Shown: positions 1,282-57,815 of the stretch, piece after piece | Position numbering within the stretch: the stretch's first letter is position 1 | Layout: each line of letters begins with the position of its first letter | Source of the DNA: a virus | Reading direction: 5' to 3' (one strand) | Virus record (IMG/VR): IMGVR_UViG_3300018080_000129 | Span: 39,501-103,500 of that record | DNA: 64,000 nucleotides | The notes under the pieces: model-generated | Seen by the model: the letters and a program-made list of their open reading frames with translations, nothing else | The model's database searches: none | Told to the model about the DNA's origin: nothing | Program-made: the position numbers and the translations under genes

Positions 1282-1823
1282 TCGTACTCCCCCTTCTGTT
1301 GCTGCTGCTCTGCCCACTCGTAAAAATCTCCCCATGTCGTGAACAGAAACTTCTCATTCGCCGTGTCGTAAACAATCGTGGCATCATACGTGTCGCCCAT
1401 GTTCACAAAAGTGCCCACGGCGTCCTGCCAGAACCTGTCAACATAAGCACCCTCAAGCGTGATTGCCTCGACACCAAAACCGCCAATCAACTTGTCAATC
1501 TCGTGCATAATTCTCTCGGCCCGATTGCGACTGGCCCGACGAGACATCAACTTGAAAACCTGCTTGGCAACATCTTCATCAATTTGAAACTCGCGCATCA
1601 TCTCTTTGATGCTGACACGAGCGAAAACCACCTTCGCCCAAAGCTCGACGTTCGCAACTATGTCTCTCATGTTCTTCTTCTCTCTTTTCCGCATGGGACA
1701 CAAGCCAAGCTTCGTACAAAAATCACCAAGATAATGCCGTCTCCTTTTCGGAACTTTCGTCCCCGTCCCCGGCGTGGGAACTGGAATCACAGCAGTTGGA
1801 GCGGCTTCATCTTGAGCTTTCAT
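1278..1823 (-). CDS. hypothetical protein
   Basis: ORF downstream of a late-promoter-like motif. An alternative start at 1670 gives MRDIVANVELWAKVVFA. Confidence 0.65.
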   Translation of the reverse strand: MKAQDEAAPTAVIPVPTPGTGTKVPKRRRHYLGDFCTKLGLCPMRKREKKNMRDIVANVELWAKVVFARVSIKEMMREFQIDEDVAKQVFKLMSRRASRNRAERIMHEIDKLIGGFGVEAITLEGAYVDRFWQDAVGTFVNMGDTYDATIVYDTANEKFLFTTWGDFYEWAEQQQQKGEYE

Positions 1824-1869
1824 TTTCAGACACTTTTAGCCACAAAATTACAGTACAATCCATCTACAC

Positions 1870-1893
1870 TATAAAGAGAATATAAAAGAATTG
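1870..1893 (-). promoter_or_regulatory. putative phage late promoter (motif copy)
   Basis: CAATTCTTTTATATTCTCTTTATA on the minus strand; the motif recurs 7 times, always intergenic and upstream of a gene block. Confidence 0.65.
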
Positions 1894-1918
1894 TGAATGC
1901 AAGGAAGGAAAGAAAATG

Positions 1919-3919
1919 CTACTTCCGAAAGACGTGAATCGGCTCGTGTTTGAAAGACTTTGAGTAAGGAGATGAAAGTTTCATAAGATGAGTACAAAAA
2001 AGCTGTAAACCTATACCTTTAATGTATTTAAGGAGGTCATCAGAGATTGGATAATGCTTTTTGTCTATTCTGATGTTTGCCACGTTGAGAACCAGATAAG
2101 CACCCTTCCTGAGCAGGTCAAAAGATTTTCTTACCAGCACGAAAAAGAACTTCTCCAACCATTCTTCGTAAGTCTCATATCGCACATCACTGAGCTTCTC
2201 ATCCGTGCCATAAATCTCTTTGCAAAAATACGGAGGAGAAGTAAATACGAGGTCAAATTCCTGCTCCTTTTTCCAGTCTTCAAAGGAGGCATAGACTATC
2301 TTTGCATCTTTCCCTTCGATGTCCCTGCTTAGGATATTCCTCATGTGCTTCAGACCAGCAACAGTATCCGCGTTGGCATCTATACCTACATACGATTTGG
2401 CTTTCTCTGATACAAAGAAGCCAAGCAATCTTCCTCCATAACCACTGCAAGGGTCAAGCACACTGCCGCCATCCGTACAATAAGTATCATAGACTGCCTT
2501 CGCAATTGCAGGACGAAAGGTATGAACTCCCCCACAAATTTGGAGTTCCGCTCTCAAGGCAGCATCCGAAACCGATTGTCTATATTTGATGCAATCTTTG
2601 ATGATGTGTTTCAATCTATTACGATTTCGAAAGACCTGATATGGACTCTGCCCACCCTTCCTCCTTGCCTTCCAAAACTCCGAAAAGTTCGAAACACAGT
2701 AACTGCTTCCCTGCGTATGACCGACTGGCACTTCATCCTCCAGTTTCAGAACTGAACTCTTCAAGGCTCCTATTTCCTTCAATCGTTTCTTTTTCTTGTA
2801 GACAGGATATGGAAAACCCGCTATCTGCCAGTAATCCACAAGGTCATCAATCTGTTTCTCCTTTTCTTCTTCACTCAAAAGAACATGCCTGCTAACGCTA
2901 AAATCCTTCAACACTGTAGCCAATGCCGGTCGAGAAAAGTGAGGAAGCCCAAAACGCAAGCTCAATGGAATTTTGTATGACATGGAAGGATGAACATGTT
3001 TTCCGATAACGGAAAAAAATCTGTCTTTGTTGTGAATCCAGAGAATCGTTATGTTATCTTCTGGTCTTGGACGACATTCAATATCCAGAGAGAAACGCTC
3101 GTTTAGCACATCGGCAATGGCTTCATAATCAGTAAAACATGTAGCCAACGTGAAAACTCCATCCAATGTTGCGTCAGCAAGATGTCCATCGTCCATATAC
3201 CAGACAGCCAAAGAAAGAGGAGTAAGTGTTTCTATCAAGCCTTCCGGTAGTTTCTTTTTGCCATCAGAGTAAAAGGAATGATAGAGTGCTACAAAGACAG
3301 GATGAAAATGGCAACGCAGAGACACACCCTTGGCTACTCGACCATCCTTCAAAATCTTTCCTTCTCTGCCAATCTTTCTTGAGAAAGGATGAAGAACCGA
3401 CTGTTTCCAGCAAAGATACTCTCTTTGCTCCGTAGAATGCGATTCTGAATATCGAGCGGAATCACCTGCCTTGTTCAAAGAAATGCACCCATCTCCCAAA
3501 AGAGAACCCATCAAAACTTCTTTCTGCGCCTGCGTCAGTTCAGAAGGCAGTGATGACCGTTGTCTTGAAGCTTTGCTTATTGGAGCAATTCCAAAATCCT
3601 GTCTCATTCGCCTAATCAGTATTTTACTGCATCCGAACAACTTCGCAAGTTTTCTTTCTCCATCCTTTCGATAAAGCTCCCCAAATTCCTCTGCTGACAC
3701 TTCTCTGATGTCTCTTAAACCCTTCAGCTTTGCTCGTCCTGCAACTCTATCCACAGACTTCATCGTCTGGATACCATACTTCTTCCTGAAATAAGCTACG
3801 CCCTCGCCAGTCAAGCCAAATCTCTTGCCAATCTCGCTGTCACTGAGGAAAAGCTCCAGATAGAGATGCCGAATGGTCTCTTCGTCCAGTCCATGTTCCT
3901 TGTGCGTCAACCTGCCCAT
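1919..3919 (-). CDS. HTH + LAGLIDADG endonuclease fused to an amino-DNA methyltransferase
   Basis: N-terminal HTH-like repeats, LMGSLLGDG and LAVWYMDDG LAGLIDADG motifs, then motif I VLDPCSGYGG and motif IV FTSPPY. Confidence 0.8.
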   Translation of the reverse strand: MGRLTHKEHGLDEETIRHLYLELFLSDSEIGKRFGLTGEGVAYFRKKYGIQTMKSVDRVAGRAKLKGLRDIREVSAEEFGELYRKDGERKLAKLFGCSKILIRRMRQDFGIAPISKASRQRSSLPSELTQAQKEVLMGSLLGDGCISLNKAGDSARYSESHSTEQREYLCWKQSVLHPFSRKIGREGKILKDGRVAKGVSLRCHFHPVFVALYHSFYSDGKKKLPEGLIETLTPLSLAVWYMDDGHLADATLDGVFTLATCFTDYEAIADVLNERFSLDIECRPRPEDNITILWIHNKDRFFSVIGKHVHPSMSYKIPLSLRFGLPHFSRPALATVLKDFSVSRHVLLSEEEKEKQIDDLVDYWQIAGFPYPVYKKKKRLKEIGALKSSVLKLEDEVPVGHTQGSSYCVSNFSEFWKARRKGGQSPYQVFRNRNRLKHIIKDCIKYRQSVSDAALRAELQICGGVHTFRPAIAKAVYDTYCTDGGSVLDPCSGYGGRLLGFFVSEKAKSYVGIDANADTVAGLKHMRNILSRDIEGKDAKIVYASFEDWKKEQEFDLVFTSPPYFCKEIYGTDEKLSDVRYETYEEWLEKFFFVLVRKSFDLLRKGAYLVLNVANIRIDKKHYPISDDLLKYIKGIGLQLFCTHLMKLSSPYSKSFKHEPIHVFRK

Positions 3920-3952
3920 AATTGACCTTTCCTGAATATGTTACGCTATCAT

Positions 3953-3981
3953 ATTATACTCTGAAACCATAGAAAAGTCAA
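3953..3981 (-). promoter_or_regulatory. sigma70-type promoter
   Basis: TTGACT-17 nt-TATAAT upstream of the 3919 start. Confidence 0.75.
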
Positions 3982-4039
3982 GTGGTTTTTCTACAAAAAA
4001 CCAAAAATAGTATTTACCCAAAGAACTGACAAGTTAGAC

Positions 4040-4077
4040 AAAAAAAGAACTCCCCAAGATTTCTCTTGAGGAGTTCT
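4040..4077 (-). terminator. intrinsic terminator after major capsid gene
   Basis: AGAACTCCTCAAGA-GAAA-TCTTGGGGAGTTCT followed by a T run. Confidence 0.8.
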
Positions 4078-4132
4078 AAACTGACGTGAGCTTCTGCTCT
4101 ACAAAGCTTAGTTATTACTCGTCATAAGTATC

Positions 4133-4987
4133 TTATACGCGAGTAATTACAAGTCTCTGAAGAGCGTATGGGTTGTACGCCCCAATCCCAAGATTCTCAA
4201 AGATTGAGAACCCGATGAGACGGTTTTTCGGGTCATCCGCAGACAGAACCGTAAGCTCGGTTCTGACAGGAATGCGTCCGAAGAATTCCGGCTCACCGCA
4301 GACGTACACGGTTCCCTCAGTGACGATACGCGAAACAATGAGCTTCGCGCCCCACAGAGTTGCCATCAAGCCAGTTTTCAGCAAGCTGGCCTGCGTCTCG
4401 ATGTCCAAGGTATCTCTGTCCCACTTACGCAGGTCAGCATAGTCCTTGGCATTCATAAAGACGTTGGCGACTCTCATGTCAGTGCGCTCGACGTTCGCGA
4501 AAGCGTCGGCCAGCGCATTGGCCGTGAGGTTGCCCGTTACCGGAATGTCGGGATTCGGGTTAGTGGGGTCAGCCGCCAGTGCATCCATGACGGCAAAAAC
4601 CTTGCGGTCTTCTTCAGCCTGAATTTCGCTCTTAGCAAGGTCAACGCTTCTCTCGATGAGGTCGAACCGACGAGCCTTGATTTCCGTCAACTGGATTTCA
4701 GGGTTCGAGGCAACTTCAAAGAGCGGGAACAGAACTCTCTTTGGCTTTGCGACTGCGACAATGTTTTCACCCTCTTCACCGACCACATAGGCCGTGATGT
4801 TCGGGTCTTTGTCGTAAATCGGCAGTGCGCCATCGGGAAGCTGTTCGACGTAGAACGCTTTGCGTCCTACGGAAGTGTAGTCCCTGCGCCGACGCAAAGG
4901 CTGAATCATGGAGGCCGCAAGACGCTGCCTACCAGCGGCAGTCTTGATGAACTGACTGATAATCTCCTGCTTCGTCTGATTATCCAT
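4133..4987 (-). CDS. major capsid protein (probable HK97 fold)
   Basis: 284 aa, strong RBS, last gene of the scaffold-decoration-capsid block and followed by a terminator. C-terminal segments (VFMNAKDYADLR, LWGAKLIVSRIVTEGTVY) resemble HK97-type capsids. Confidence 0.8.
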   Translation of the reverse strand: MDNQTKQEIISQFIKTAAGRQRLAASMIQPLRRRRDYTSVGRKAFYVEQLPDGALPIYDKDPNITAYVVGEEGENIVAVAKPKRVLFPLFEVASNPEIQLTEIKARRFDLIERSVDLAKSEIQAEEDRKVFAVMDALAADPTNPNPDIPVTGNLTANALADAFANVERTDMRVANVFMNAKDYADLRKWDRDTLDIETQASLLKTGLMATLWGAKLIVSRIVTEGTVYVCGEPEFFGRIPVRTELTVLSADDPKNRLIGFSIFENLGIGAYNPYALQRLVITRV

Positions 4988-5058
4988 TACTCTTTACCTC
5001 CTTTTTCCAGTTTGCATCTTCTTTCTTCTGTTTCACTGCATTCTTACACACACCTGAC

Positions 5059-5553
5059 TTAGATGCGCATATCCAATCCGAGGGTCGGCGACGTAACGGT
5101 CGGAGCCTTCGTGCAGATACCGATAACGACTTGGCTGGTGCTCACTTCGTTCGTCAGGAAGCCCTGAGCGGACGAGTAGAGTTTCTCACCGACTGCATAG
5201 GTGAGGTCGCCGCTATCATCGTTTTTACGGGTTTCGTACACATCGACTTCAACAGACGCATGCGCCTTCATCACAGTCACCTTGCCAGAAACCACGGCGG
5301 GAGCATTTTCAAAAGCGGCTCCAGCGGCATCATTAACAAAGAGACCGACCGGCATGAGAGTCATGTTACACGGCACGACGGTGTAGTCGTTTCCAGCCGA
5401 CACAGCCGCCACAGAGCCGCCCAACACGCCTCTCGGAGTGTTGACACTCAACGTCGTATTCGTATTGACGCCATAGTTTGCTTTGGTGTAGCAGACATCG
5501 GCCAATACCGGAATCGCGTTGAGATGTCCACGAATAAGAATCGTTAGAGCCAT
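5059..5553 (-). CDS. head decoration/cement protein (probable)
   Basis: Small Gly/Ala/Val-rich beta protein immediately upstream of the capsid gene, with motif YAVGEKLYSSAQGFLT. Confidence 0.6.
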   Translation of the reverse strand: MALTILIRGHLNAIPVLADVCYTKANYGVNTNTTLSVNTPRGVLGGSVAAVSAGNDYTVVPCNMTLMPVGLFVNDAAGAAFENAPAVVSGKVTVMKAHASVEVDVYETRKNDDSGDLTYAVGEKLYSSAQGFLTNEVSTSQVVIGICTKAPTVTSPTLGLDMRI

Positions 5554-5588
5554 CTCAAAACCTCCTTTGTTCGAGAAAACCGTTCACC

Positions 5589-6710
5589 TTACTTGAAGAC
5601 CGAACTCACGTCAGGAGCATCATCCCAAATCTTGCTAATGTCATTGGTGGACATATCGCTGGCAACCTTGACCTGCCCGCCGAGTGACTTAACGCCTTGT
5701 TTCTTTGCAGCCTTTTTGGACTTCTTGGAAGACATTTTGGTATTCTGGTTTTCGTCCTGCGCCTTTTCTTCTTCCTCATCCTGCGCCTTTTCTTCTTCCT
5801 CGTCCTGAGCCGTTTCTTCCTCTTCATCCTGCGAGAAGAGCTTGCCCAAGAGTTTTTCGGATTCGCTGCTGATTTCCTCGCTGCCTTCGGTGATGGAGTT
5901 AAGCTCGATGTCCATATCTACGCTGCTTTTCTTTTCTTCCTCTTCCTGAGCTTCTTCCCCAACATCCTCGTCCTTTTCAACAGCTTCGTCTTCGTCCTGA
6001 GACTTCTTCTTGGACGCTTCCTTCTTCTCTTCTTCGTCCTGAGCAGTCTCTTCTTCCTTCTTCTCTTCTTCATCCTGCGCGGTTTCTTCCTTCTTCTCTT
6101 CTTCGTCCTGAGCAGTCTCTTCTTCCTTCTTCTCTTCTTCGTCCTGAGACTTCTTGGACTTCACGCAGGCTTCTTCATCCTTATCTTCTTCATCTTGAGC
6201 GGTCTCTTCCTTCTTTTCCTCTTCGTCCTGCGCGGTTTCTTCCTTCTTCTCTTCTTCGTCCTGAGCAGTCTCTTCTTCCTTCTTCTCTTCTTCGTCCTGA
6301 GCCGTCTCTTCCTCTTCATCCTGCGAGTAGACGGTTTCGGTTTCAGAGAAGCGTTCCAGCGACTCATTCAGGCCTTTGTTGCCAAGCTTCATAAAGGTAC
6401 GGGCTTGGGCTTCGATAACGTCCTCATCCACCTTATCGCCAAGCAGCAGCACAGCCAGACGTACAGCCTTGGAAGCCGCAGCGCGAATGCTGGCGACGGT
6501 CGGAATACCAAAGCCGATTTCGTCGCGCTTTTCATTCTTCCACTCGTGACGCATGTCGGGGAGCGGATGATTCACGACTTCTTCCCAATTGTCATATTGG
6601 TCACGTTTTTTGAATTTGCGACCGGGCTGATTAACAGTGCCGGGATAAGGAGTGTCGTCTTCGACGGCTCTTCTACGCCGTCTCTGTGTCAGTCTGACTC
6701 TTCTTCCCAT
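5589..6710 (-). CDS. acidic scaffold-like protein
   Basis: Arg-rich N-terminus, long (TAQDEEEKKEEE)n region, C-terminal ISKIWDDAPDVSSVFK; position before decoration and capsid genes. Confidence 0.6.
   Translation of the reverse strand: MGRRVRLTQRRRRRAVEDDTPYPGTVNQPGRKFKKRDQYDNWEEVVNHPLPDMRHEWKNEKRDEIGFGIPTVASIRAAASKAVRLAVLLLGDKVDEDVIEAQARTFMKLGNKGLNESLERFSETETVYSQDEEEETAQDEEEKKEEETAQDEEEKKEETAQDEEEKKEETAQDEEDKDEEACVKSKKSQDEEEKKEEETAQDEEEKKEETAQDEEEKKEEETAQDEEEKKEASKKKSQDEDEAVEKDEDVGEEAQEEEEKKSSVDMDIELNSITEGSEEISSESEKLLGKLFSQDEEEETAQDEEEEKAQDEEEEKAQDENQNTKMSSKKSKKAAKKQGVKSLGGQVKVASDMSTNDISKIWDDAPDVSSVFK
5745..6325 (-). repeat. coding tandem repeat of 24-36 bp units (AQDEEEKKEEET)
   Basis: Imperfect repeats of tcttcgtcctgagcagtctcttcttccttcttc on the + strand. 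Confidence 0.85.
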
Positions 6711-6742
6711 TATCCAATCTCCTTTCACAAGAAACGAGTGTC

Positions 6743-7387
6743 CTACTTCCTCAGGCCGATACTCTTATCCAGAGCATCCGACAGTCTATCAATACGCAAA
6801 GCCAGCCGCTTGTCGCCTTTCTTCTCAAGATAGTCGGCAACTCTGTCCAGCCGTTGCGTGGCAACTTTGACACGGGCCACGAAAGCGTTTTTCGGCTCAA
6901 CGGTTTTCACCTTGGAGCCTGCCGCTTCTTCAACCTCATCGAGATAATCTTGAGTGATTTGGTCTTCAACACCGGGGGATTTTTCGCTGCTGCGCGTCTT
7001 GCGACGTTTTGCGGCTCTGTTCCGTGCGCTACTGATGATGTCTTCAGCTTCTTCCTCATCCTCGACTTCTTCAAGCTCTTGGCTAAGCTCTTCAATCTGA
7101 GAAACCAAGTCTTCGTCCTGACCGACTTCAATCTCTTCCTCTTCTTCGAATTCTTCGTCCTGCGCCTTGATTTCTTCCTCTTCGTCTTGGCCTAATTCGA
7201 TTTCGTCTTCCTCTTCTTCAAGTTCTTCGTCCTGTGCCGTGATTTCTTCCTCTTCTTCTTCTTGAGCCTCAAGTTCTTCTTCTTCGTCGTCTTGTGAGAG
7301 CCTTTTTTCCATTGCCTTGATTTCATGCAGCAGGGAGTCACGCTCATCTTCGTAACTCTCGGTGCTTCTCCGTCTTCTCGGTCTCAT
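6743..7387 (-). CDS. second acidic scaffold-like protein
   Basis: Repeats of (A/S/G)QDEEE, with a C-terminal amphipathic helix pair RLDRVADYLE...LALRIDRLSDAL. Confidence 0.55.
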   Translation of the reverse strand: MRPRRRRSTESYEDERDSLLHEIKAMEKRLSQDDEEEELEAQEEEEEEITAQDEELEEEEDEIELGQDEEEEIKAQDEEFEEEEEIEVGQDEDLVSQIEELSQELEEVEDEEEAEDIISSARNRAAKRRKTRSSEKSPGVEDQITQDYLDEVEEAAGSKVKTVEPKNAFVARVKVATQRLDRVADYLEKKGDKRLALRIDRLSDALDKSIGLRK

Positions 7388-7466
7388 TAAACTACCTCCT
7401 TTTGAACTGCGACAAACAAGAAAGAGACGAATATATTCCGTGTGGAGAAACTACGCTACCCAATAT

Positions 7467-7490
7467 AATAATGAAATGATAAAAAAATTG
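7467..7490 (-). promoter_or_regulatory. putative phage late promoter (motif copy)
   Basis: CAATTTTTTTATCATTTCATTATT upstream of the scaffold/capsid block. Confidence 0.55.
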
Positions 7491-7587
7491 TTCAAAATAA
7501 ATCACAGTGTAAAATACAATGTAAGTTGGTGTGAATAAACACTTTAATGTGTGGAAACCTGCCAAAAATTATCGGTGGCTGGTTTTT

Positions 7588-8046
7588 TTATTTGCAAATT
7601 TTCCTACGGCATCTTCGGCCTGTAAGTTCGTGCAGTTTCACGCCTTCCTGTGCTTCGTTCCACAGGAAGGCACGGTATCCCTCCTCAAGAATCAGCCGCA
7701 GGCCGCTACGAGTGTAGCCTTTTGCAATGGCGACACCTTCCACGTTGTTCCAATGTTTGGTTTGCTTTCCAACTGTCTTCAAAACCTCCACTGCTTTCTT
7801 GATTTGTCCGAGAACGATATGGTCAGCTTCCTCATGGCTCTTGAGTTCGAGAACATAGAGAGTCGTATCCTTCTCAGGACAGGCAAGATTCATCTTATCT
7901 TGGAAGACCAAATCCACACGGTCATCGGAGACAGGACAGACGGGATATTCTGTGCCGCGAATAAATATAGAATTCAACTTAAGAGCGTTTTGAAGAATGT
8001 GAGGATTGCGCCACAGGAGTGTGAGCATTCGCTCATGCTCGGTCAT
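7588..8046 (-). CDS. PD-(D/E)XK nuclease-like protein (NucS-like C-terminal domain)
   Basis: DRVDLVF...YVLELKS...IVLGQI pattern. Confidence 0.6.
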   Translation of the reverse strand: MTEHERMLTLLWRNPHILQNALKLNSIFIRGTEYPVCPVSDDRVDLVFQDKMNLACPEKDTTLYVLELKSHEEADHIVLGQIKKAVEVLKTVGKQTKHWNNVEGVAIAKGYTRSGLRLILEEGYRAFLWNEAQEGVKLHELTGRRCRRKICK

Positions 8047-8279
8047 TACAAACCAATCTCCTTAGGGTTAATTTTGAAACGAGCCATCGACTTCTTGATT
8101 GATTTCATCATGTCCGCATAAACATCCGGCATCGTCTTATGAATGTTGTATTTTTTGGCATCTTCCAACCATTTCTTTATGCCGCGAACATGCCCTTCTT
8201 TCGTGTCATAAGGGTCTGACACTGCTATCAATTCCTTTGCAATCCTCAATAATTCTCTTGCTACTTGCTTATTATTCAT
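8046..8279 (-). CDS. hypothetical protein with N-terminal amphipathic leader
   Basis: MNNKQVARELLRIAKELIA; AGGAG RBS. Confidence 0.75.
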   Translation of the reverse strand: MNNKQVARELLRIAKELIAVSDPYDTKEGHVRGIKKWLEDAKKYNIHKTMPDVYADMMKSIKKSMARFKINPKEIGL

Positions 8280-8290
8280 TGTTTTCTCCT

Positions 8291-8602
8291 CTATACATCC
8301 TCCGCACCATCGAACTCATCCAGCTTCTTCAATTCGGTATAGACAAAGTTCCGGTAATGCACATCCGTCTCGTCAATGGCATAAGAGAAATCGCCAAATG
8401 CGATGAACTCGTTCTGCCCGAACTGGTAATTCTTTACCGTTAGCGGCCTCTTACCGTTCTGCCGAGCGGCTGCATTGTGGTAAACCGCCACCATTATCAT
8501 TCCCTTGGCGTCTGTGTAAATCTGATTGGTTCCAATTATACGCCAGTAAGCTTCGGAATGAGTCACACCAAAATCGTCATCGTAAGAAAGCTGCAAAGCC
8601 AT
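8291..8602 (-). CDS. hypothetical protein
   Basis: RBS plus ORF within the operon. Confidence 0.7.
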   Translation of the reverse strand: MALQLSYDDDFGVTHSEAYWRIIGTNQIYTDAKGMIMVAVYHNAAARQNGKRPLTVKNYQFGQNEFIAFGDFSYAIDETDVHYRNFVYTELKKLDEFDGAEDV

Positions 8603-8615
8603 GTCCTTGTCTCCT

Positions 8616-10904
8616 CTAATAATGTCCGTAAAAGTCTGCGGCTACCCGTTTCGCCATTGCCTGCCTGCGAAGCCGTTTCATTTCCTTCAACGTCACGCGC
8701 AACGCAAGCATTCCACTTTTATCCGCTACTCTCATGTGCTCCAGATTCTCGAATATTTCCTCAATCGTCCTATTTGGAATTGCAAGAATGCTGGCAGCCT
8801 TTTTCTCGTCCTCAAGCTGGCTCACAAAATGATTCAGCACCGCTCCCTTGAAAGCTGGTTTGGCTACCCAGGAAGCTTCAATGAATCTGAGAGACTCAGG
8901 GTCGCCTACCAGTTTGCCAGTCGAATCCTTATACGTCCTGCCGCAAAGCTCCGCAACAATGCGCTTCTTGCCGTCCTTGTCCGTGTAATAAGAAAGAAGC
9001 TCCGTCTTCAAATGGATACAGGTATCATCGTTGTCGGTAAACTCTTTGCCACACTTCGAGCACGTCACAATATGGGCAAGGCAGTTTTCGGCTCCAATAC
9101 CGCCACCAACTGTCAGACTGTGTTCTTCTTCTACTTCAAGACAATACACATACATCTTCTCGTTTACATCACTTATAGGTCGAACCTGTTCCACCTTTTT
9201 GATTCGACACATTACAAAATCATCCGATAATTGTTTGTGGAAACGTTTGTGTATTTTCCTTGGGTCGCCATCTGCCCAACGAGTCGTATATGGCGTTACT
9301 TTGCAAACAACCGAAGAAGGCACCGTGATATAATGTGCGGCTCTGTGCGCAACAATTATATCGCCCTGTTTTGTTTCGTGTGCTTCGTTGACCTTCCAAG
9401 AATGATACACACCTATCCGAGTAAGCATTAAACTCAATTGGCTGGCAAGTTTTGGACTTACAGTGGCACCAACAAGCCGTCCACGATTCTTCTTATCCAA
9501 ACAACCATCGCCATCAAACCAAGCACCTACAAGCGCACGAATAGCTGGAAGAGGCCACGAAACTACATCTTCAGTAACTTCTTTACCCCAAGAATAATGA
9601 CCACCATGATTCTTAAACCAATTCACAACATCTTCATTCCAGGCCGTTCGAATTTGACATTGTTTTGATTTTTTCCGCACATACAAAGAAGCGTTGACGT
9701 TAAATTCCTCCTTCAACAATTTTTGCGTTTCTCTTGCAAGCGTTTCTCTTTCGTCAATACTATAAGAAAATTCAACACAACGATATTTTCCCTTCTGTTT
9801 TACAAGATTTCCTTCGGCAAGATATAATCCCAAAAGCCTTGCTTTACCTGTCGAAATACTCTCCGAAGAAATCTCGTACTTACAAGGCATTGTAAGAAAA
9901 TCGCCTTTTTCAAGTTTACATGCTTCTTTCCAACTGAATTTTGGTTTTAATGCTTCTTTTAATGCTGCTTGACGTTGTTGCTTTTTCTCTGGACTATATG
10001 TAATCATAGGATTAAGAATACGAAGTTGATGTCCAGAAAGAAATGCCGCTTGAATAGTTCTACGAGATTTTTCTGCATTGTCCTCTAAGGGCAAGCCACA
10101 ACCACAACTACATTCATCTCGTCTTGTCAACGCCCAAAACTTATGATTTCCAGTACAAATAATTGGGTCAGGCCTTCCATCTATCCAAATCTTATAAATA
10201 TCACCGAACCAATGCGTTTTAATAGGACGTGTTACTTCACGAGCAAAACCACGATGCGTAATGACCTTCTCGCCCTTTTCAACCGTCTCAATAGACTTTT
10301 GAGTTCCATCAGACATTGTAACTAATGTGCCTCTTTGAAAACAACCCATCGAAAGCGTGTCCATCTCGCTGGACTCTATCCTTCTTATGAGGTCAGAATG
10401 CCTGCGATTCGTAGCGACAAGAATGTCTACATACTTGACATTCGCCTTCTTGCCATTCTTACCGACATAGATAACAGGCCGGACAACGGCATCCAGAATT
10501 TTTCCCTTGGAAAGTTCTGGAACCTGAATATGTTCTTCATAGTTTTCCGCACCAATGAAAGAGCGAAAAGTGGCAAGAAGAACAGGCTCCGTCCAGCCAT
10601 TGCCATTGTTATTGATAAGCTCATCACAGGGAGGAATAATGCGATAGCCGTCATCTTCGACGTTGACCGAACTGATAATCGAACAATGAGTGAAAAGATA
10701 ATCGCTAAGATTATACTTGCTCCAGTCAACTTCTATCTTCCTATCGCTGGCAATGCGCATATTGCCTCTGGTGAGCGCAAGCCAGTCTCTTTCAGGATGC
10801 CGAAGAACCTGAACCACGGGCGCATTGATGTCAAAGGCCCGCGATTTCTGACTGGCAATCAGAAGACATTGGTTGGAAGTGCAGCGTCTTTGCATGTTAT
10901 TCAT
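8616..10904 (-). CDS. probable prohead maturation protease containing an intein
   Basis: Extein has N-x-N-G-N-G-W, EH, GKILDAV, TLSMG|C...TCSKCG...CIHL and FIEASWVAKPAF motifs. Located between portal and scaffold genes. Confidence 0.65.
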   Translation of the reverse strand: MNNMQRRCTSNQCLLIASQKSRAFDINAPVVQVLRHPERDWLALTRGNMRIASDRKIEVDWSKYNLSDYLFTHCSIISSVNVEDDGYRIIPPCDELINNNGNGWTEPVLLATFRSFIGAENYEEHIQVPELSKGKILDAVVRPVIYVGKNGKKANVKYVDILVATNRRHSDLIRRIESSEMDTLSMGCFQRGTLVTMSDGTQKSIETVEKGEKVITHRGFAREVTRPIKTHWFGDIYKIWIDGRPDPIICTGNHKFWALTRRDECSCGCGLPLEDNAEKSRRTIQAAFLSGHQLRILNPMITYSPEKKQQRQAALKEALKPKFSWKEACKLEKGDFLTMPCKYEISSESISTGKARLLGLYLAEGNLVKQKGKYRCVEFSYSIDERETLARETQKLLKEEFNVNASLYVRKKSKQCQIRTAWNEDVVNWFKNHGGHYSWGKEVTEDVVSWPLPAIRALVGAWFDGDGCLDKKNRGRLVGATVSPKLASQLSLMLTRIGVYHSWKVNEAHETKQGDIIVAHRAAHYITVPSSVVCKVTPYTTRWADGDPRKIHKRFHKQLSDDFVMCRIKKVEQVRPISDVNEKMYVYCLEVEEEHSLTVGGGIGAENCLAHIVTCSKCGKEFTDNDDTCIHLKTELLSYYTDKDGKKRIVAELCGRTYKDSTGKLVGDPESLRFIEASWVAKPAFKGAVLNHFVSQLEDEKKAASILAIPNRTIEEIFENLEHMRVADKSGMLALRVTLKEMKRLRRQAMAKRVAADFYGHY
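9084..10343 (-). mobile_element. intein with LAGLIDADG homing endonuclease (420 aa)
   Basis: Starts CFQRGTLVTMSDG, block B CTGNHKF, LGLYLAEG and AWFDGDG motifs, ends VYCLEVEEEHSLTVGGGIGAEN followed by Cys+1. AT-richer than its flanks. Confidence 0.85.
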
Positions 10905-11629
10905 CCCACATAAGCCACTACGTCATAACGAGATAGAGGCTCATCTATCGAACCCGCTCCTCCCGCCACGACCGTTCCATAAAGCTTGTTCTCCCTACCT
11001 CTATTATTCAGAAAGGGAATCTCGAATGTCCAGACCTTTCCGTTCGGCACACCTTGGTCATTGTGTCGGTACTCCGCGCTGGTTACGTAGGAAGGAATGT
11101 CGGCCTTCTCAAGAGCCTTCCAGACTCTTTGGATGCCTTGCCACGACTCATCACTGAAAATACCTCTGGAAACGCTACCAATGAGCCTGTTGACGATGCG
11201 TTTCGCCGTCTGCTTGCTTTTCCCATCAAGAGGATTCGGATTTTCTGCTGCTTTTTTCTGATACTTCTTGGGCAGAAGATGCTCGTACTTTCCTTCTTCC
11301 GCTTCCTCTTCAAATCTGCTTACGAGGTCTTTGGCAAGTTCTGTTCGCGTAGCCTTATCTGCCAATTCATGCCATTTCTGGCCTCTGATTTTGTTCTCTT
11401 CGACGTATTGTTTCGCAGCACGTTCGGTCAGATACATCATCAACTGGACGGCTCTTCTGGAGTCATAAACACCACGGGCCATCTTCGTGATGAGATTCTT
11501 GGCATACTCTTCCCACACCCTCTTGGGCATCTTTCCCCGAATGAAAGCATCGAGTTCGCCTACCATCGGCTTATCAACAGCCAAGATTTCTCGCGCTATC
11601 CTCAGCAGTTCACGCACGTGAAAATTCAT
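10901..11629 (-). CDS. hypothetical protein with N-terminal amphipathic leader
   Basis: Likely start MNFHVRELLRIAREILA after GGGAG RBS. Confidence 0.7.
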   Translation of the reverse strand: MNFHVRELLRIAREILAVDKPMVGELDAFIRGKMPKRVWEEYAKNLITKMARGVYDSRRAVQLMMYLTERAAKQYVEENKIRGQKWHELADKATRTELAKDLVSRFEEEAEEGKYEHLLPKKYQKKAAENPNPLDGKSKQTAKRIVNRLIGSVSRGIFSDESWQGIQRVWKALEKADIPSYVTSAEYRHNDQGVPNGKVWTFEIPFLNNRGRENKLYGTVVAGGAGSIDEPLSRYDVVAYVG

Positions 11630-11645
11630 GTTCGAACTCCCGCTT

Positions 11646-12002
11646 TTAGGGCTGAAAAACATTGGCGGCAACCATATTGCTCATGTTGCCGTATTTTCTG
11701 TTGCCCGTGGCTGTAAAGAGCGTATCACAATAGCCTTTTTCGCAGGCATCTTGAACTGGAATCTTCATCAGGTCGCGTCCGATAATCGAAATCTGTTCCC
11801 CGATGAGTTCGACATTGTTCAGGGTGCCATTGTTCTGGCTGTTACGGGTAAGCGGTTCCTGCAACCAAGTGCGGCTGGTAAGCATGTTCGTCTTGAACGT
11901 GTTTGCCGCTGTCAGTTCAGCACCTGTTGCGGGATTGTAGCGCAGGGAACGGCCAACCGCATACACCCATCTGGCGTATTCCCAATTATCAATGCCCGTC
12001 AT
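11646..12002 (-). CDS. hypothetical virion-associated protein
   Basis: RBS AAGGAGGAG; ORF within the late operon. Confidence 0.65.
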   Translation of the reverse strand: MTGIDNWEYARWVYAVGRSLRYNPATGAELTAANTFKTNMLTSRTWLQEPLTRNSQNNGTLNNVELIGEQISIIGRDLMKIPVQDACEKGYCDTLFTATGNRKYGNMSNMVAANVFQP

Positions 12003-35885: not shown

Positions 35886-37685
35886 TTAGAACTTCTGGCG
35901 AATCTGCTCGATGGTGGGAATCTCTTCCTCAGCCATCACGCCTTCGGTCTGCAACAGCATTTGGATGATTTTCTCGCTGAAACCTCCAACGAGATTGACC
36001 TTCTCCTTCTTTTCATCTACAATACTGTCACCATAACCATGCAGATTGACAGAGTGCAGCCACGTATTGGCAGACTGCTTGCTTCTTTTGTAACGCTGCC
36101 ATGCGTCTGCCACATTGCTGCTGCTGCCACCATACCCATAACCATAACCGTCCGTCCAGCACTGCATATCGCTGAGCAGAATAATTCGGTCAGGATGCGC
36201 ATTCTTCCTAATCAAATACTCAAAGCAAAGATGTCCATTCGTGCTGCATCCATTCGTATTGGCATTCGCCAGCTTCTTTACCATCTCCATCACGCTCGTG
36301 CGCTTCGTGTAGGAAACAGGCGCAACAGCCGTGGCGAATGCGGCCACAATGGACTTCTCCGAACGCTTCGCACAAATTGCCGCCAGTGTGTTCGCAGCGT
36401 TCTTGCAGGACATCTTGCTTCTGTCTGACACAGCAGACTCCATCGAGCCACTGTTATCCGCGAAGACTGCGGTCTCGCCAGTCAGAAAAGGCACGTTCTC
36501 GCAAGCCGCCTCAGCCGCATCCTCGATGGCTTCCAGCACAGTCTTCAGCTTGGAGTCATCAATCGTTTCCCGCTCATCCTCATAGCCGTAACCGTAGCCA
36601 TGCTGAGAGCCAAAACCCTGAAGCATCTCGTAAGCCATCGTGAAACGGAAAGGCAATTGCTTGCTCCGCAGCACTTCTTCCTTGTCCGACAACTTCTTCG
36701 CCACAGCGTCGATGACTTTGGAACTTACATCTGTTTTCATCAAGTTCCGCAGATTCCGCAAAAGGGCCATATACCCGACCAGATTCTTCTCAATCAGGTA
36801 TTCCCATACTTCGCGCTTGGTTTTGTCATCGCGGCCAAACTGAGAAAGCACAACTTCCCAATTCGCCAATGACTTCGCAACAAGCTCCTTGGCCTTTTTG
36901 TCGAATTTCTCCTGCTTCGTCATTTCCCTACGAGCGAAAGCGACAGGAGTTCCCTCTTCGTCCACTTCGCCTTTGATGAAATACTTGCAAACCGCATCAG
37001 GAAGAGGATAATCCTTCTTTCTCTTCCTCACAAGCCGGAGTACATCCTTGAAAGTAGGATAGCCAGGGCTATCATACTTCATCAGGCCGCGCTCATTGAA
37101 CTTGTGAAGAGCGTCTCCAATTCCACGGCTCAAGCAGTTCTTGAGGCTCTTGCTGCCAAAGAAATACTTGTGCAGGGCCACGACCGTCTTGACCTCATCA
37201 GGACGCCGGATAATTTTCGTAGCATACTGGCGCACATACTCCTGACAATTCTCATGGGCCGAAGCCAGCACGAGAAGAACTTGAGGAGTGAGACGAATGT
37301 TCATCTCATTGCGCAGCCAGTTCGCGATTGCCAGCGCGTCACGGGGATTCTCCGTACCCATGATGTCTACCGCCGTAGCGATAACTTCCTGAGCCACGTC
37401 GTCCAAATCACCAGCATCGACAAACTTGGCCTTTTCCCTGACAATGCGCAGCCTCTCAGCCAACTTGGAGTATTTTCCAGCCGCCCCCCTCTTCGCCACA
37501 ACGGAATCACCATTGTAGTATCGAGGTTCGGAAAAAAAGGAGCCTCCCGTCATGGTAATCAGCTTCGTAGCAGGGCACTGAATCTCAAAAGCCACACCGC
37601 CTGCCCTGTTGACTGTGGCATTCGCAGCCTTCGAAGCTTTGTTCTTACCAACTCTCGACTTTAGTTTCTTCTTCATTGTTCCCAT
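35886..37685 (-). CDS. TROVE-domain RNA-binding protein (Ro60/Rsr-like) with vWA domain
   Basis: VNRAGGVAF, LRNEMNIR, IIRRPDE, GYMALLRNLRN, SKQLPFRF, MIDAS DNSGSM, IILLSDMQ, VNLHGYG, GFSEK. Confidence 0.9.
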   Translation of the reverse strand: MGTMKKKLKSRVGKNKASKAANATVNRAGGVAFEIQCPATKLITMTGGSFFSEPRYYNGDSVVAKRGAAGKYSKLAERLRIVREKAKFVDAGDLDDVAQEVIATAVDIMGTENPRDALAIANWLRNEMNIRLTPQVLLVLASAHENCQEYVRQYATKIIRRPDEVKTVVALHKYFFGSKSLKNCLSRGIGDALHKFNERGLMKYDSPGYPTFKDVLRLVRKRKKDYPLPDAVCKYFIKGEVDEEGTPVAFARREMTKQEKFDKKAKELVAKSLANWEVVLSQFGRDDKTKREVWEYLIEKNLVGYMALLRNLRNLMKTDVSSKVIDAVAKKLSDKEEVLRSKQLPFRFTMAYEMLQGFGSQHGYGYGYEDERETIDDSKLKTVLEAIEDAAEAACENVPFLTGETAVFADNSGSMESAVSDRSKMSCKNAANTLAAICAKRSEKSIVAAFATAVAPVSYTKRTSVMEMVKKLANANTNGCSTNGHLCFEYLIRKNAHPDRIILLSDMQCWTDGYGYGYGGSSSNVADAWQRYKRSKQSANTWLHSVNLHGYGDSIVDEKKEKVNLVGGFSEKIIQMLLQTEGVMAEEEIPTIEQIRQKF

Positions 37686-37727: not shown

Positions 37728-37763
37728 AAAAAAAAATGGGAAACACTCAGAGAATGCTTCCCA
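37728..37763 (-). terminator. intrinsic terminator inside the TROVE 5' leader
   Basis: TGGGAAGCATTC-TCT-GAGTGTTTCCCA followed by T9. Confidence 0.8.
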
Positions 37764-37813
37764 CTGCGTCCCGCCAGCAGACAGAATCTAATGGCGGCAA
37801 TGAAAAGAAATCT

Positions 37814-37881
37814 GAGTACCAATAAGCGCAGTAGCGGTTTCTTTCTCTATGATAGAAGTATGCCACTGCTGGAGCGTACTC
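37814..37881 (-). ncRNA. Y-RNA-like motif, copy in TROVE leader
   Basis: GAGTAC-GCTCCA-GCAGTGGC-ATACTTC...GCTACTGC-GCTTATTG-GTACTC; same scaffold as the three copies at 51874-52439. Confidence 0.7.
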
Positions 37882-37912
37882 TTTTCAATCCACACACTTT
37901 TATAAGTGCGAC
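37882..37912 (-). CRISPR. solitary type I-C-like CRISPR repeat
   Basis: GTCGCACTTATAAAAGTGTGTGGATTGAAAA: 5' GTCGCAC, hairpin, 3' GTGGATTGAAA. Confidence 0.65.
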
Positions 37913-37928
37913 TCTATATTAACGTAAT

Positions 37929-37956
37929 ATTATACAGCAGAGTTCGAACTTTTCAA
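37929..37956 (-). promoter_or_regulatory. sigma70-type promoter
   Basis: TTGAAA-16 nt-TATAAT; predicted start about 10 nt before the repeat. Confidence 0.6.
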
Positions 37957-51697: not shown

Positions 51698-51774
51698 TGG
51701 TAGCGGGAGTCGGATTCGAACCGACGACCTTGAGGTTATGGGCCTCACGAGCTACCAGACTGCTCCATCCCGCA
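51698..51774 (-). tRNA. tRNA-fMet(CAU)
   Basis: TGCGGGATGGAGCAGTCTGGTAGCTCGTGAGGCCCATAACCTCAAGGTCGTCGGTTCGAATCCGACTCCCGCTACCA; 1:72 mismatch, initiator-type D arm. Confidence 0.92.
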
Positions 51775-51788
51775 CCATTCCAATCAAA

Positions 51789-51862
51789 TCTCTCACTGGC
51801 CGAAGATAACCATCTCAGGCGTGTGAGGAGGACGAAAGAGAGGAGTATCAACCAGTGAGAGA
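51789..51862 (-). ncRNA. stem-loop RNA with pyrimidine-rich loop
   Basis: TCTCTCACTGGTTGA...TCGGCCAGTGAGAGA 15-bp closing stem. Confidence 0.5.
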
Positions 51863-51873
51863 AAGTAAAAGAA

Positions 51874-51969
51874 GATTCAGTACCGATGGTCGAAGAGAGA
51901 ACATACGTGGTAAACCACGTCTCAATATAGATTGAATTGAAGTAACTCTCTTCTGGAGCGTACTGACTC
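51874..51969 (-). ncRNA. Y-RNA-like motif, copy with two small hairpins
   Basis: TCAGTAC-GCTCCA-GAAGAGAG-TTACTTC...CTCTCTTC-GACCATCG-GTACTGA. Confidence 0.7.
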
Positions 51970-52005
51970 CTTTCTTTTCGCTTCACCACACTTTCACTTT
52001 TCTTT

Positions 52006-52037
52006 CTTTCAACCCACACTTTCGCAAGGAAAGTGAA
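52006..52037 (-). CRISPR. solitary type I-C-like CRISPR repeat
   Basis: TTCACTTTCCTTGCGAAAGTGTGGGTTGAAAG: 32 nt, 7-bp hairpin, 3' TGGGTTGAAAG tail. Confidence 0.45.
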
Positions 52038-52043
52038 AAGAAA

Positions 52044-52180
52044 GCCGATACCAATAGTCGCAAAGAGAAATTTTACGTGTGCTATCTTTTACACTACTCC
52101 CCATCAAAGTTGGGGAGGCAGGAGTTGCACCTGCACCACGTCCGTATGATGGAAGTAACTCTTCGCTGGAGCGTATCGGT
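52044..52180 (-). ncRNA. YrlA-like Y RNA with circularly permuted tRNA domain
   Basis: Shared scaffold enclosing T arm GCAGG-TGCAACT-CCTGC, loop-closed acceptor stem CTCCCCA/TGGGGAG, TA linker and D arm GTG...CAC. Confidence 0.8.
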
Positions 52181-52201
52181 TTCCTGTGCTATAAAAGAAC
52201 T

Positions 52202-52439
52202 TTCGATACCTAAGGTCGAATAGAGGATTACGCTACACAGCGTAGTGCCGTCTCTCCAGCAATGTCACCGTTCTTTCACGGTCTGTCGTCGGATACTTTG
52301 ACCCGCAGTCAGCGAAACTTTCCTCGCAGCCATCATGGGTTTTAGCCCATGAGCAAAGCCCGTCTTTCCGAGCATGTCAGGAGTTCCACTCCTTTTCACA
52401 TAATCAATGTGAAGTATCTCTACTCTGGAGCGTATCGAA
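52202..52439 (-). ncRNA. Y-RNA-like motif, copy enclosing nine hairpins
   Basis: TTCGATAC-GCTCCA-GAGTAGAG-ATACTTC...CTCTATTC-GACCTTAG-GTATCGAA. Confidence 0.7.
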
Positions 52440-52489: not shown

Positions 52490-52518
52490 ATTATACCATT
52501 TTCGACAGACTTTTTCAA
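52490..52518 (-). promoter_or_regulatory. sigma70-type promoter of the RNA operon
   Basis: TTGAAA-17 nt-TATAAT with extended -10 TG. Confidence 0.75.
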
Positions 52519-57159: not shown

Positions 57160-57515
57160 TGGTGGAGGCGGCGAGGAGTCGCACCTCGCGTCCAGTGGTG
57201 CTCTCGATAGGGCGTCTACACGCTTATCCAGTTGATTCTATATCTCGGCTCATCTGGCAAGCCTCAGGCGGCTGTTTACCCGCCACGTCAGGCCGTCTTT
57301 CCAGCCTGCCAACCTGTCTTTCCAAGCTGCCAGCCCTTGTGTCGTACCCTATTCCCGCTTACTAAGGACGAATCTCAACGGTTTTGGGGCTGCCTAAGCA
57401 GCGATTCTGTAGGAGTTGCCAAGTAAATGGCATAGTCGGCTTTTTACGAGGCCAACCGACCAACCTCGACGTGCAGCCATTCTCGATACGCATCCTGTCG
57501 ATACTACGCGCCCCC
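57160..57515 (-). ncRNA. ssrA: tmRNA
   Basis: 5' GGGGGCG...TCGAC; 3' GCGAGG-TGCGACT-CCTCGC-CGCCTCCACCA with G3:U70; internal tag frame GNSYRIAA* at 57394..57420; 356 nt. Confidence 0.92.
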
Positions 57516-57585: not shown

Positions 57586-57815
57586 GAAAAGTAAGGAAGA
57601 TAGTGGTGTTTCATCATCGACGCATCCGTTGGAGGATTTTCAACCTCTTTTGCTCCATTGCTTTTTTTACTAAATCAATGCCGTCTTTCCGGCTGTCAGC
57701 GAGACTAAATATCTCGCTTACCAATAATTTTTTTAGAGCAATGGAGCTTATTTCACGGATAAGCAAAAGCCCTTCGCTAACTGCTCGAAGCGTCTCCCAC
57801 CTACCCTACACTCTC
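57586..57815 (-). ncRNA. structured RNA resembling the 23S rRNA L1 stalk (H76-H78)
   Basis: GTGTAGGGTAGGTGGGAGAC...GTCGATGATGAAACACCAC flanking nested stems. Confidence 0.6.

What the first reader, a model, noticed from the sequence alone, without database searches (positions are those of the whole stretch)
51874..52439. Modular family of Y-RNA-like ncRNAs: one conserved scaffold, swappable cargo, plus a phage Ro60/TROVE gene
Seen: four minus-strand elements (37814-37881, 51874-51969, 52044-52180, 52202-52439) share stem1(..TAC)-GCTCCA-stem2(8 bp)-WTACTTC-[cargo]-stem2'-8 nt-GTA..stem1'. Stem2 covaries: GCAGTGGC/GCTACTGC, GAAGAGAG/CTCTCTTC, GCGAAGAG/CTCTTTGC, GAGTAGAG/CTCTATTC. The loops GCTCCA and TACTTC are invariant. 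Cargo differs: minimal loop, two hairpins, permuted tRNA, nine hairpins. Known: Ro60/Rsr binds Y RNAs through a terminal stem, and a second module tethers effectors (PNPase in Deinococcus). Inference: the phage Ro60 (35886-37685) uses a panel of adaptor RNAs with a non-canonical binding site, so one protein could form several different RNPs.
Basis: partly seen in the sequence, partly recalled or inferred. Interest (0 to 1): 0.92.

Follow-up and report, generated by a model that had tools for sequence, protein, structure and literature searches.

The report
Phage Ro60 partner RNA family
A large uncultured phage encodes a Ro60-type RNA-binding ring protein and six small RNAs that share one conserved two-stem "handle" but carry different inner parts; this is a new sequence variant of the known Ro60/Y-RNA particle, not a new kind of system.

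Summary
All four minus-strand elements exist as described. Two more copies lie upstream in the same 103.5-kb phage contig, inside a tRNA array.

Both stems covary strongly. Across 50 family members, 96% of cells pair and 14 of 14 pairs show compensatory changes. The loops (G)CUYCA, UACUUC and GAYUWUYG stay conserved.

The gene at 35886-37685 is a true Ro60: Pfam TROVE plus vWA_Ro60, and a full-length predicted fold match to Xenopus Ro60.

The same handle lies upstream of the TROVE gene, on the same strand, in all 17 loci of the closest phage clade. It matched 23 of 49 TROVE-bearing phage records and 0 of 49 control phage records.

Weaker versions, with AGUGCA or GGCGACA in the 5' loop but the same UACUUC, sit beside TROVE genes in more distant phages, including CcrColossus and phiLo, and in bacteria. 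So the handle is a clade-specific variant of the YrlA/YrlB-type scaffold in which the canonical CGAA motif is replaced.

Cargo falls into three recurring classes: minimal, tRNA-like, and arrays of short hairpins with SRAAGA loops. That hairpin also occurs in the phage's tmRNA.

Phage Ro60 with phage Y RNAs is already published (2014, 2025), and this scan has reported similar handle-and-cargo arrays on other DNA. Binding and function are untested.

The parts
35886..37685 (-). Ro60/TROVE protein gene (599 aa): HEAT-repeat ring plus vWA domain with MIDAS residues
   Evidence: Pfam TROVE E 1.3e-24 and vWA_Ro60 E 1.9e-11. It matches phiLo Ro60 chains 9KOP and 9L5Y by sequence. The AF2 model (pLDDT 77.6) best matches Xenopus Ro60 1YVP, TM 0.76 over the full length. 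D410, S412, S414, T482 and D506 are invariant in 18 homologues.
37814..37881 (-). Copy A: minimal-cargo Y-like RNA, 129 nt upstream of the TROVE start codon
   Evidence: Exact motif. R2 scores it 68.3 bits. Fold -24.2 kcal/mol, z -3.85.
37929..37956 (-). Sigma-70-like promoter for copy A (TTGAAA, 16 nt, TATAAT)
   Evidence: Matches 11 of 12 consensus positions.
37735..37765 (-). Intrinsic-terminator-like hairpin with U tract, between copy A and the TROVE gene
52490..52518 (-). Sigma-70-like promoter (TTGAAA, 17 nt, TG-TATAAT) ahead of D-C-B-tRNA-Met, just after the upstream gene's terminator-like site
   Evidence: Matches 11 of 12 positions. No convincing terminator site follows before the tRNA; the only hit is copy B's own second hairpin.
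52202..52439 (-). Copy D: handle plus 185-nt cargo of nine hairpins, five of them with GAAAGA-type hexaloops
   Evidence: Exact motif. R2 34.8 bits, E 3e-6. Folds. The same cargo class occurs in L105, L107, L108 and G008.
52044..52180 (-). Copy C: handle plus a degenerate permuted tRNA-like cargo (T-arm, closed acceptor-like stem-loop, D-like arm without GG)
   Evidence: R2 53.3 bits. The T-arm and acceptor-like stem match Rfam Tymo_tRNA-like at 26 bits, below threshold. Fold.
51874..51969 (-). Copy B: handle plus two-hairpin cargo
   Evidence: R2 51.7 bits. Fold z -4.24.
51698..51774 (-). tRNA-Met, on the same strand downstream of D-C-B. In relatives a tRNA-Met-like gene begins about 7-12 nt after the minimal Y-like copy.
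   Evidence: ARAGORN and Rfam. Synteny in L104, L105, L108, L111 and L114.
57160..57515 (-). Phage tmRNA. It is syntenic with the Y-like/TROVE cluster in relatives and carries two copies of the G-GAAAGA-C hairpin found in copy D.
   Evidence: Rfam tmRNA 88.4 bits. Hairpins at 57289-57329. tmRNA lies upstream of the Y-like RNAs in L105, L111 and L114.

Best explanation
These are phage-encoded Y RNAs, the small-RNA partners of the phage's own Ro60 (TROVE) ring protein. Each RNA pairs its 5' and 3' ends into stem1. An asymmetric internal loop follows (5' GCUCCA, 3' G-N-Y-U-W-U-Y-G), then an 8-bp stem2 and the junction UACUUC. This constant handle is the inferred docking site for Ro60. The variable interior projects from it and determines what else the particle binds or imitates. 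Cargo is minimal in A and E (YrlB-like, possibly only gating the ring), tRNA-like in C and F (YrlA-like), a two-hairpin module in B, and an array of SRAAGA-loop hairpins in D. Copy A has its own promoter directly upstream of the Ro60 gene. The other copies sit in transcription units shared with tRNAs and are probably released by tRNA-processing enzymes such as RNase P acting on the adjacent tRNA. Shown here: the structure, its conservation, its covariation, and its genomic linkage to TROVE. Inferred: Ro60 binding, processing, and the role of each cargo. The likely biological role is RNA surveillance or repair during infection, or countering host attack on tRNAs.
For: Structure: 96.1% of cells pair and 14 of 14 pairs carry compensatory changes across 50 members, against 39-52% paired in slid controls (six own copies). 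The unpaired motifs are near-invariant: UACUUC 98-100%, CUUCA 70-98%, and the 3' loop bases G1, U6 and G8 at 82-100%.
Linkage: every one of the 17 closest TROVE loci has at least one copy upstream on the TROVE strand, most within 500 nt. The covariance model R2, built here from 20 handle copies, matched 23 of 49 TROVE phage records and 0 of 49 control phage records. A scan starting from the RNA motif found true copies only in TROVE contigs, plus one 24-kb tRNA-array fragment estimated at 7% of its genome.
Homology to known Y RNAs: copy F and the tRNA-like copies in relatives give sub-threshold YrlA hits. The same two-stem handle with UACUUC lies beside TROVE in CcrColossus and in Clostridia, Phycisphaerae and Zixibacteria genomes upstream of the gene, and in phiLo just downstream of it.
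Genome-specific 5'-loop variants are shared by all paralogues of a genome although their stems and cargo differ. The variants are GCUCCA in all 6 copies here, GUACA in G015, and AGUGUA in G021. This pattern fits one common protein partner.
The protein has the Ro60 fold. Published precedent: phiLo Ro60 binds two phage Y-like RNAs and host PNPase (PMC12135203), and YrlA genes lie beside rsr in 22 phages (PMC4201824).
Against: There is no expression or binding data for this uncultured phage. No copy reaches Rfam's YrlA gathering score: F scores 31.3 against 69 bits, and C has no hit. The GNCGAA/CGAA motif implicated in Ro60 recognition is absent. Five of the six copies lie 14 kb or more from the TROVE gene, next to tRNAs rather than TROVE. 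The control phage set was not matched for tRNA-rich jumbo phages. Alignments fitted to a covariance model lean towards that model's structure.
Confidence: 0.8

Rival explanations
1. The elements are structural punctuation of phage tRNA operons. On this reading they are processing or stability elements, or decayed and rearranged tRNA genes, that work without Ro60, and their nearness to TROVE reflects only shared placement in an RNA-gene island.
For: Copies E and F, and many copies in G008, G014 and L300, lie between tRNAs with short U-rich linkers. B, C and D precede tRNA-Met. C and F contain tRNA-like arms. L300 has two copies and no TROVE in its 24 kb.
Against: Minimal copies have no tRNA-like part, yet keep the same handle and sit directly upstream of TROVE in nearly every clade member. 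The handle loops are conserved as sequence, which plain spacers would not require. Bacterial TROVE genes outside tRNA arrays carry the same handle upstream. L300 covers only 7% of its genome.
Confidence: 0.08
2. The RNAs are free-standing anti-defence decoys: tRNA mimics that absorb host anticodon nucleases, hairpin arrays that sponge a host RNA-binding protein, and CRISPR-repeat fusions that trap Cas proteins. Ro60 would be at most a chaperone.
For: The cargo includes tRNA-like domains. Multivalent hairpin arrays resemble protein sponges. Type I-C-like solitary repeats abut copy A and precede copy B (the repeat identity rests on my memory). The contig is rich in tRNAs, a tmRNA and an RNA ligase.
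Against: This does not explain why very different cargos keep an identical handle, or why handle variants track the TROVE clade. It overlaps with the best explanation and does not exclude it, since Y RNAs are known tethers.
Confidence: 0.08
3. Copy A is chiefly a cis-acting leader or attenuator of the Ro60 gene, and the other copies are paralogues without a shared trans function.
For: The order is promoter, copy A, strong terminator-like hairpin, then the TROVE start codon.
Against: In relatives a tRNA often separates the nearest copy from TROVE. Five other copies with the same handle lie far from TROVE. Y RNA genes upstream of rsr are the known arrangement (PMC4201824, PMC12135203).
Confidence: 0.04

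Closest known systems
Bacterial and phage YrlA/YrlB Y RNAs with Rsr (Ro60) (Chen et al. 2014, PMC4201824; Rfam RF02553)
   Same: They are encoded beside rsr/TROVE on the same strand. The ends pair into a stem with an asymmetric internal loop, a second stem follows, and YUAY comes after it. One class carries a permuted tRNA-like domain (T-arm, closed acceptor-like stem, D-arm) and another class is short and lacks it. Several occur per genome.
   Different: The GNCGAAN0-1G motif is absent and is replaced by (G)CUYCA. No copy reaches the Rfam gathering score. There are 6 copies here and at least 10 in relative G008. Most are dispersed in tRNA arrays far from the gene. Some carry large non-tRNA cargos of 145-255 nt.
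Thermus phage phiLo Ro60 with Yrl1 and Yrl2 (NAR 2025, PMC12135203; PDB 9KOP, 9L5Y)
   Same: A phage-encoded Ro60 with several phage-encoded Y-like RNAs next to the gene. The protein fold is the same. The paper shows RNA binding and recruitment of host PNPase.
   Different: The proteins are about 24% identical. According to the paper the phiLo RNAs carry the CGAA motif. No tRNA-like or hairpin-array cargo is described there.
Deinococcus radiodurans Rsr-Yrn1-PNPase (RYPER) and metazoan Ro60-Y RNA particles
   Same: The modular logic is the same: a conserved stem binds Ro60 and the other module tethers an effector. The related locus L115 has GGUCCA, which resembles the metazoan GGUCCGA.
   Different: The effector partners here are unknown. 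Cargo diversity within one genome is much larger.
Handle-and-cargo RNA arrays beside Ro60-like/DUF2828 proteins reported by this scan on other phages (for example e1-5935525, e1-5924251, e1-5635721)
   Same: One shared handle, variable and often tRNA-like cargo, and a linked Ro60-like ring protein.
   Different: Here the protein is a canonical Pfam TROVE plus vWA_Ro60 protein. The handle sequence (CUYCA ... UACUUC) differs from the motifs quoted in two of those notes (YACAGC, CWGCAA). I did not check those notes.

Membership tests
Y RNA (Ro60-associated small RNA, functional class) | Encoded adjacent to a Ro60/TROVE gene, on the same strand | tested here: met
   Copy A ends 129 nt upstream of the TROVE start codon. 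All 17 closest loci have a copy upstream on the same strand.
Y RNA (Ro60-associated small RNA, functional class) | The 5' and 3' ends pair into a long stem, interrupted by a conserved loop or bulge that holds the Ro60 site | tested here: met
   Two covarying helices flank a conserved 6 by 8 nt internal loop.
Y RNA (Ro60-associated small RNA, functional class) | Physically bound by Ro60 | not testable with these tools
   This needs EMSA, RIP or a structure. The only support here is co-occurrence and genome-specific handle variants.
YrlA (Rfam RF02553) | Scores at or above the family gathering threshold (69 bits) | tested here: not met
   F scores 31.3 bits. C has no YrlA hit at E<=10. None of 47 TROVE phage records exceeds the cut-off.
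YrlA (Rfam RF02553) | tRNA-like domain with T-arm, closed acceptor-like stem and D-arm | tested here: met
   Met in F, which has canonical T and D loops, and in C in a degenerate form. Absent from A, B, D and E.
YrlA (Rfam RF02553) | GNCGAAN0-1G motif near the 5' end (Chen 2014) | tested here: not met
   All six copies read (R)UAC-GCUCCA-G at that position. CcrColossus keeps GGCGACAG at the aligned position.
YrlA (Rfam RF02553) | Conserved YUAY following the second stem | tested here: met
   WUAC is present in all copies as part of UACUUC, 98-100% conserved in 50 members.
Ro60 / TROVE protein | TROVE HEAT-repeat ring plus C-terminal vWA domain with a MIDAS site | tested here: met
   Both Pfam domains exceed their cut-offs. 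Foldseek's top 12 hits are all Ro60/Rsr chains, TM 0.65-0.77. The DxSxS, T and D residues are invariant.

The most novel reading that the evidence does not exclude
The clade-specific handle (CUYCA in place of CGAA, identical in every paralogue of a genome) may act as an orthogonality code. It would let the phage Ro60 load only its own RNAs and not the host's Y RNAs. The cargo panel would then couple that one ring protein to several processes. The hairpin-array cargo shares a G-SRAAGA-C hairpin with the phage tmRNA, which could recruit an unidentified hairpin-binding factor to both and link Ro60 surveillance to ribosome rescue. Copies fused to type I-C-like CRISPR repeats could bring in or trap Cas proteins.
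Probability: 0.2. Interest if true: 0.75.

Novelty: new variant of a known kind. Interest (0 to 1): 0.5.

Why it matters
Ro60/Y-RNA particles are conserved from bacteria to humans, but what decides the function of each Y RNA is poorly understood. This phage clade offers a natural panel. It has one Ro60, six to ten RNAs with an identical handle, and three recurrent cargo classes, one of them previously undescribed as far as my searches reached. That makes two things directly testable: handle recognition (CUYCA against CGAA) and cargo-specific partners. The work also yields a covariance model that finds Y RNAs which Rfam's YrlA model misses in every TROVE-bearing phage record tested.

Tried and rejected
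An exact-motif scan of IMG/VR (ACGCTCCA-N8-WTACTTC) gave 96 stretches. Outside the own contig these were chance matches or one recurrent coding sequence, and none had credible matching 3' strands.

The search for related loci with the single TROVE protein found nothing. An alignment of homologues was needed.

The contigs of the 90%- and 61%-identical TROVE proteins could therefore not be examined.

MAFFT misaligned the 3' halves of copies with unequal cargo. I therefore bootstrapped from A and E (model R1) to a 20-sequence model (R2).

The Rfam Y_RNA and YrlA models gave no threshold-level hit. The hit of C's cargo to a tymovirus tRNA-like element reflects only a similar T-arm and acceptor-like stem.

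A CsrA-sponge reading of D's hairpins was considered. I did not adopt it because several loops lack GGA. The resemblance to lambda boxB is from memory and was not tested.

No RtcB gene is present in the contig.

The two Wolin-lab reviews (PMC10870794, PMC6047535) are not held.

Full report
**Context.** The window is bases 39501-103500 of a 103.5-kb IMG/VR viral contig, estimated 31% complete, so probably part of a jumbo phage. Genes and RNA genes in the region run on the minus strand. Rfam and ARAGORN find a tmRNA (57160-57515) and a tRNA-Met (51698-51774).

**Observation.** GCTCCA-N8-WTACTTC occurs exactly four times in the window, always on the minus strand. It occurs six times in the contig and never as the reversed control.
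- The two extra copies lie about 17 kb before the window, between tRNA-Trp and tRNA-Glu. E is minimal (G000:C1:22183-22258). F carries a tRNA-like cargo (G000:C1:22034-22171).
- On the six copies, 98.9% of stem cells pair and 8 of 15 pairs change on both sides. Slid controls pair at 30-51%.

**The protein.** ORF 35886-37685 matches Pfam TROVE and vWA_Ro60 above their cut-offs. It matches the solved phiLo phage Ro60 by sequence. An AF2 model (pLDDT 77.6) has Ro60 and Rsr chains as its twelve best PDB matches, with TM up to 0.77 over the full length. The MIDAS residues are invariant among 18 homologues. Homologues at about 50% identity are numerous on large metagenomic contigs. No cultured phage exceeds 30% identity.

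**Relatives.** An alignment-based search found 440 viral contigs that encode a TROVE relative, of which 80 were fetched.
- A descriptor scan and a covariance model built from A and E found the same handle on the TROVE strand, upstream of the gene, throughout the closest clade.
- The second model (R2, from 20 sequences) matched 23 of 49 TROVE-bearing records at E<=1e-3 and 0 of 49 control phage records.
- In the closest clade R2 matched 13 of 16 records. The three misses have long cargos, which the descriptor or a smaller search then found.
- Copy numbers are high: at least 10 in G008, and 5 each in G011, G014 and G015.
- On 50 members, 96.1% of cells pair and all 14 pairs show compensatory changes. 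Slid controls pair at 39-52%.
- The consensus is stem1, (G/A)CUUCA, G-N4-G-R-G, W-UACUUC, cargo, C-Y-Y-N4-C, G-(A/C)-Y-U-W-U-Y-G, stem1'.
L300 is a 24-kb fragment at 7% completeness that holds 31 tRNAs, with two copies in the same position as E and F.

**Relation to known Y RNAs.** Rfam's YrlA model scores F at 31.3 bits through its tRNA-like domain. It gives only sub-threshold hits in all 47 phage records, and several of those hits coincide with tRNA-like-cargo copies.
- The YrlA consensus has the same layout: stem, a 5-nt by 8-nt internal loop, a 7-bp stem, then CUAC.
- In more distant TROVE phages the handle keeps UUACUUC and a similar 3' loop, but its 5' loop reads AGUGUA or AGUGCA. Bacterial TROVE loci in Clostridia, Phycisphaerae and Zixibacteria show the same.
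- CcrColossus reads GGCGACAG at the aligned position, which is the canonical CGA-type motif, followed by UUACUUC.
- The handle here is therefore a diverged member of the YrlA/YrlB scaffold, with the 5' loop changed from a CGAA type to CUYCA.
- Within one genome, all paralogues share the same 5'-loop variant despite different stems and cargo: GCUCCA six times here, GUACA in G015, AGUGUA in G021. I read this as co-evolution with one protein partner (inference).

**Cargo classes.**
- Minimal, 56-76 nt in total, with a short purine-rich (GAAA) apical segment that can pair with the CUUC of UACUUC.
- T-arm or full tRNA-like, 109-167 nt.
- Large, 187-317 nt.

Within the large class, copy D and the copies in L105, L107, L108 and G008 consist of four to six tandem 4-6-bp hairpins with hexaloops of the type G/C-R-A-A-G-A, mostly closed by G-C. 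A strict version of this hairpin occurs four times in the contig against 0.69 expected. All four are in RNA genes: one in D, two inside the tmRNA, and one at 57680-57693. In relatives it occurs only in the RNA-gene zone upstream of TROVE. Its binding partner is unknown.

**Expression signals and synteny.**
- A near-consensus promoter (52518-52490) follows the terminator-like site of the upstream gene and precedes D, C, B and tRNA-Met. The scan's only terminator-like hit between them is copy B's own second hairpin.
- Copy A has its own promoter (37956-37929) and is followed by a terminator-like hairpin before TROVE.
- In relatives the order is tmRNA, sometimes a ribozyme-like element, large Y-like RNA, minimal Y-like RNA, a tRNA 7-12 nt downstream, then TROVE.
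- In this phage about 14 kb of glycosyltransferase, radical-SAM and other genes separate the cluster from copy A and TROVE.
- The tight tRNA junctions suggest that the tRNA-processing machinery releases the RNAs. This is an inference. Chen et al. showed RNase P cleavage of a YrlA (PMC4201824).

**Literature.** YrlA-type RNAs next to rsr were reported in 254 bacteria and 22 phages (PMC4201824). A 2025 study showed that Thermus phage phiLo Ro60 binds two phage-encoded Y-like RNAs and assembles with host PNPase (PMC12135203). A jumbo-phage survey notes TROVE proteins with a tRNA-like partner (PMC7824862). I found no paper describing the CUYCA handle, the hairpin-array cargo, or families of 6-10 paralogues. 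This scan has logged similar handle-and-cargo arrays beside Ro60-like proteins on other DNA. It has none for this clade.

**Verdict.** The feature is real and the Y-RNA reading is well supported by comparative evidence. It is a new sequence variant and an expanded form of a known system. Binding, processing and the role of each cargo remain to be shown.

Noticed in passing
window 37882-37912 and 52006-52037 (minus strand): Hairpin-plus-GGAUUGAAA elements resembling a type I-C CRISPR repeat (my recollection of the repeat consensus) lie directly 5' of copy A and about 36 nt before copy B. L103 has GAAUUGAAAU immediately 5' of its TROVE-proximal copy. They could be solitary-repeat anti-CRISPR RNAs or 5' processing sites.
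   Followed up: partly
window 57289-57329 and 57680-57693 (minus strand): The G-GAAAGA-C hairpin of copy D recurs twice inside the phage tmRNA and once in the RNA region just upstream of it. The tmRNA of relative L111 also carries two (7884-7919).
   Followed up: partly
L340:6337-6400 (Thermus phage phiLo, just downstream of the Ro60 gene): R2 gives a weak hit (22.3 bits, E 9e-4) with a two-stem handle and GUACUUC. This may be a third Y-like RNA beyond the two reported upstream of the gene in PMC12135203.
   Followed up: no
L105:7400-7476 and L114:8681-8751: Related phages have a twister-P5 ribozyme match at threshold (38.0 against 37.6 bits) near the tmRNA, and an HDV-like ribozyme match (37.8 bits, below the 44-bit cut-off) starting right at the tmRNA 3' end.
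   Followed up: no
window 51790-51865 (minus strand): Between copy B and tRNA-Met, a 10-bp long-range stem (CUCUCACUGG / CCAGUGAGAG) encloses about 45 nt. This is another structured spacer of unknown role.
   Followed up: no
L300 (IMGVR_UViG_3300017991_000384), 1-12000: A fragment of another jumbo phage carries 31 tRNA genes in 12 kb. Two Y-like copies lie between tRNA-Val, tRNA-Glu and tRNA-Asp, syntenic with E and F of this contig.
   Followed up: partly
G000:C1:5854-6435 (outside the window, minus strand): An RNA ligase (Pfam PF09414, E 2.5e-26) is encoded in the tRNA-rich part of the contig. No RtcB gene was found.
   Followed up: no
L345 (Phycisphaerae MAG, 351-kb contig), L344, L366, L351, L372: Bacterial TROVE genes have one or two Y-like RNAs with an AGUGCA...UACUUC handle directly upstream. 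They score well below Rfam's YrlA-style expectations, so many bacterial Y RNAs of this handle type may be unannotated.
   Followed up: partly
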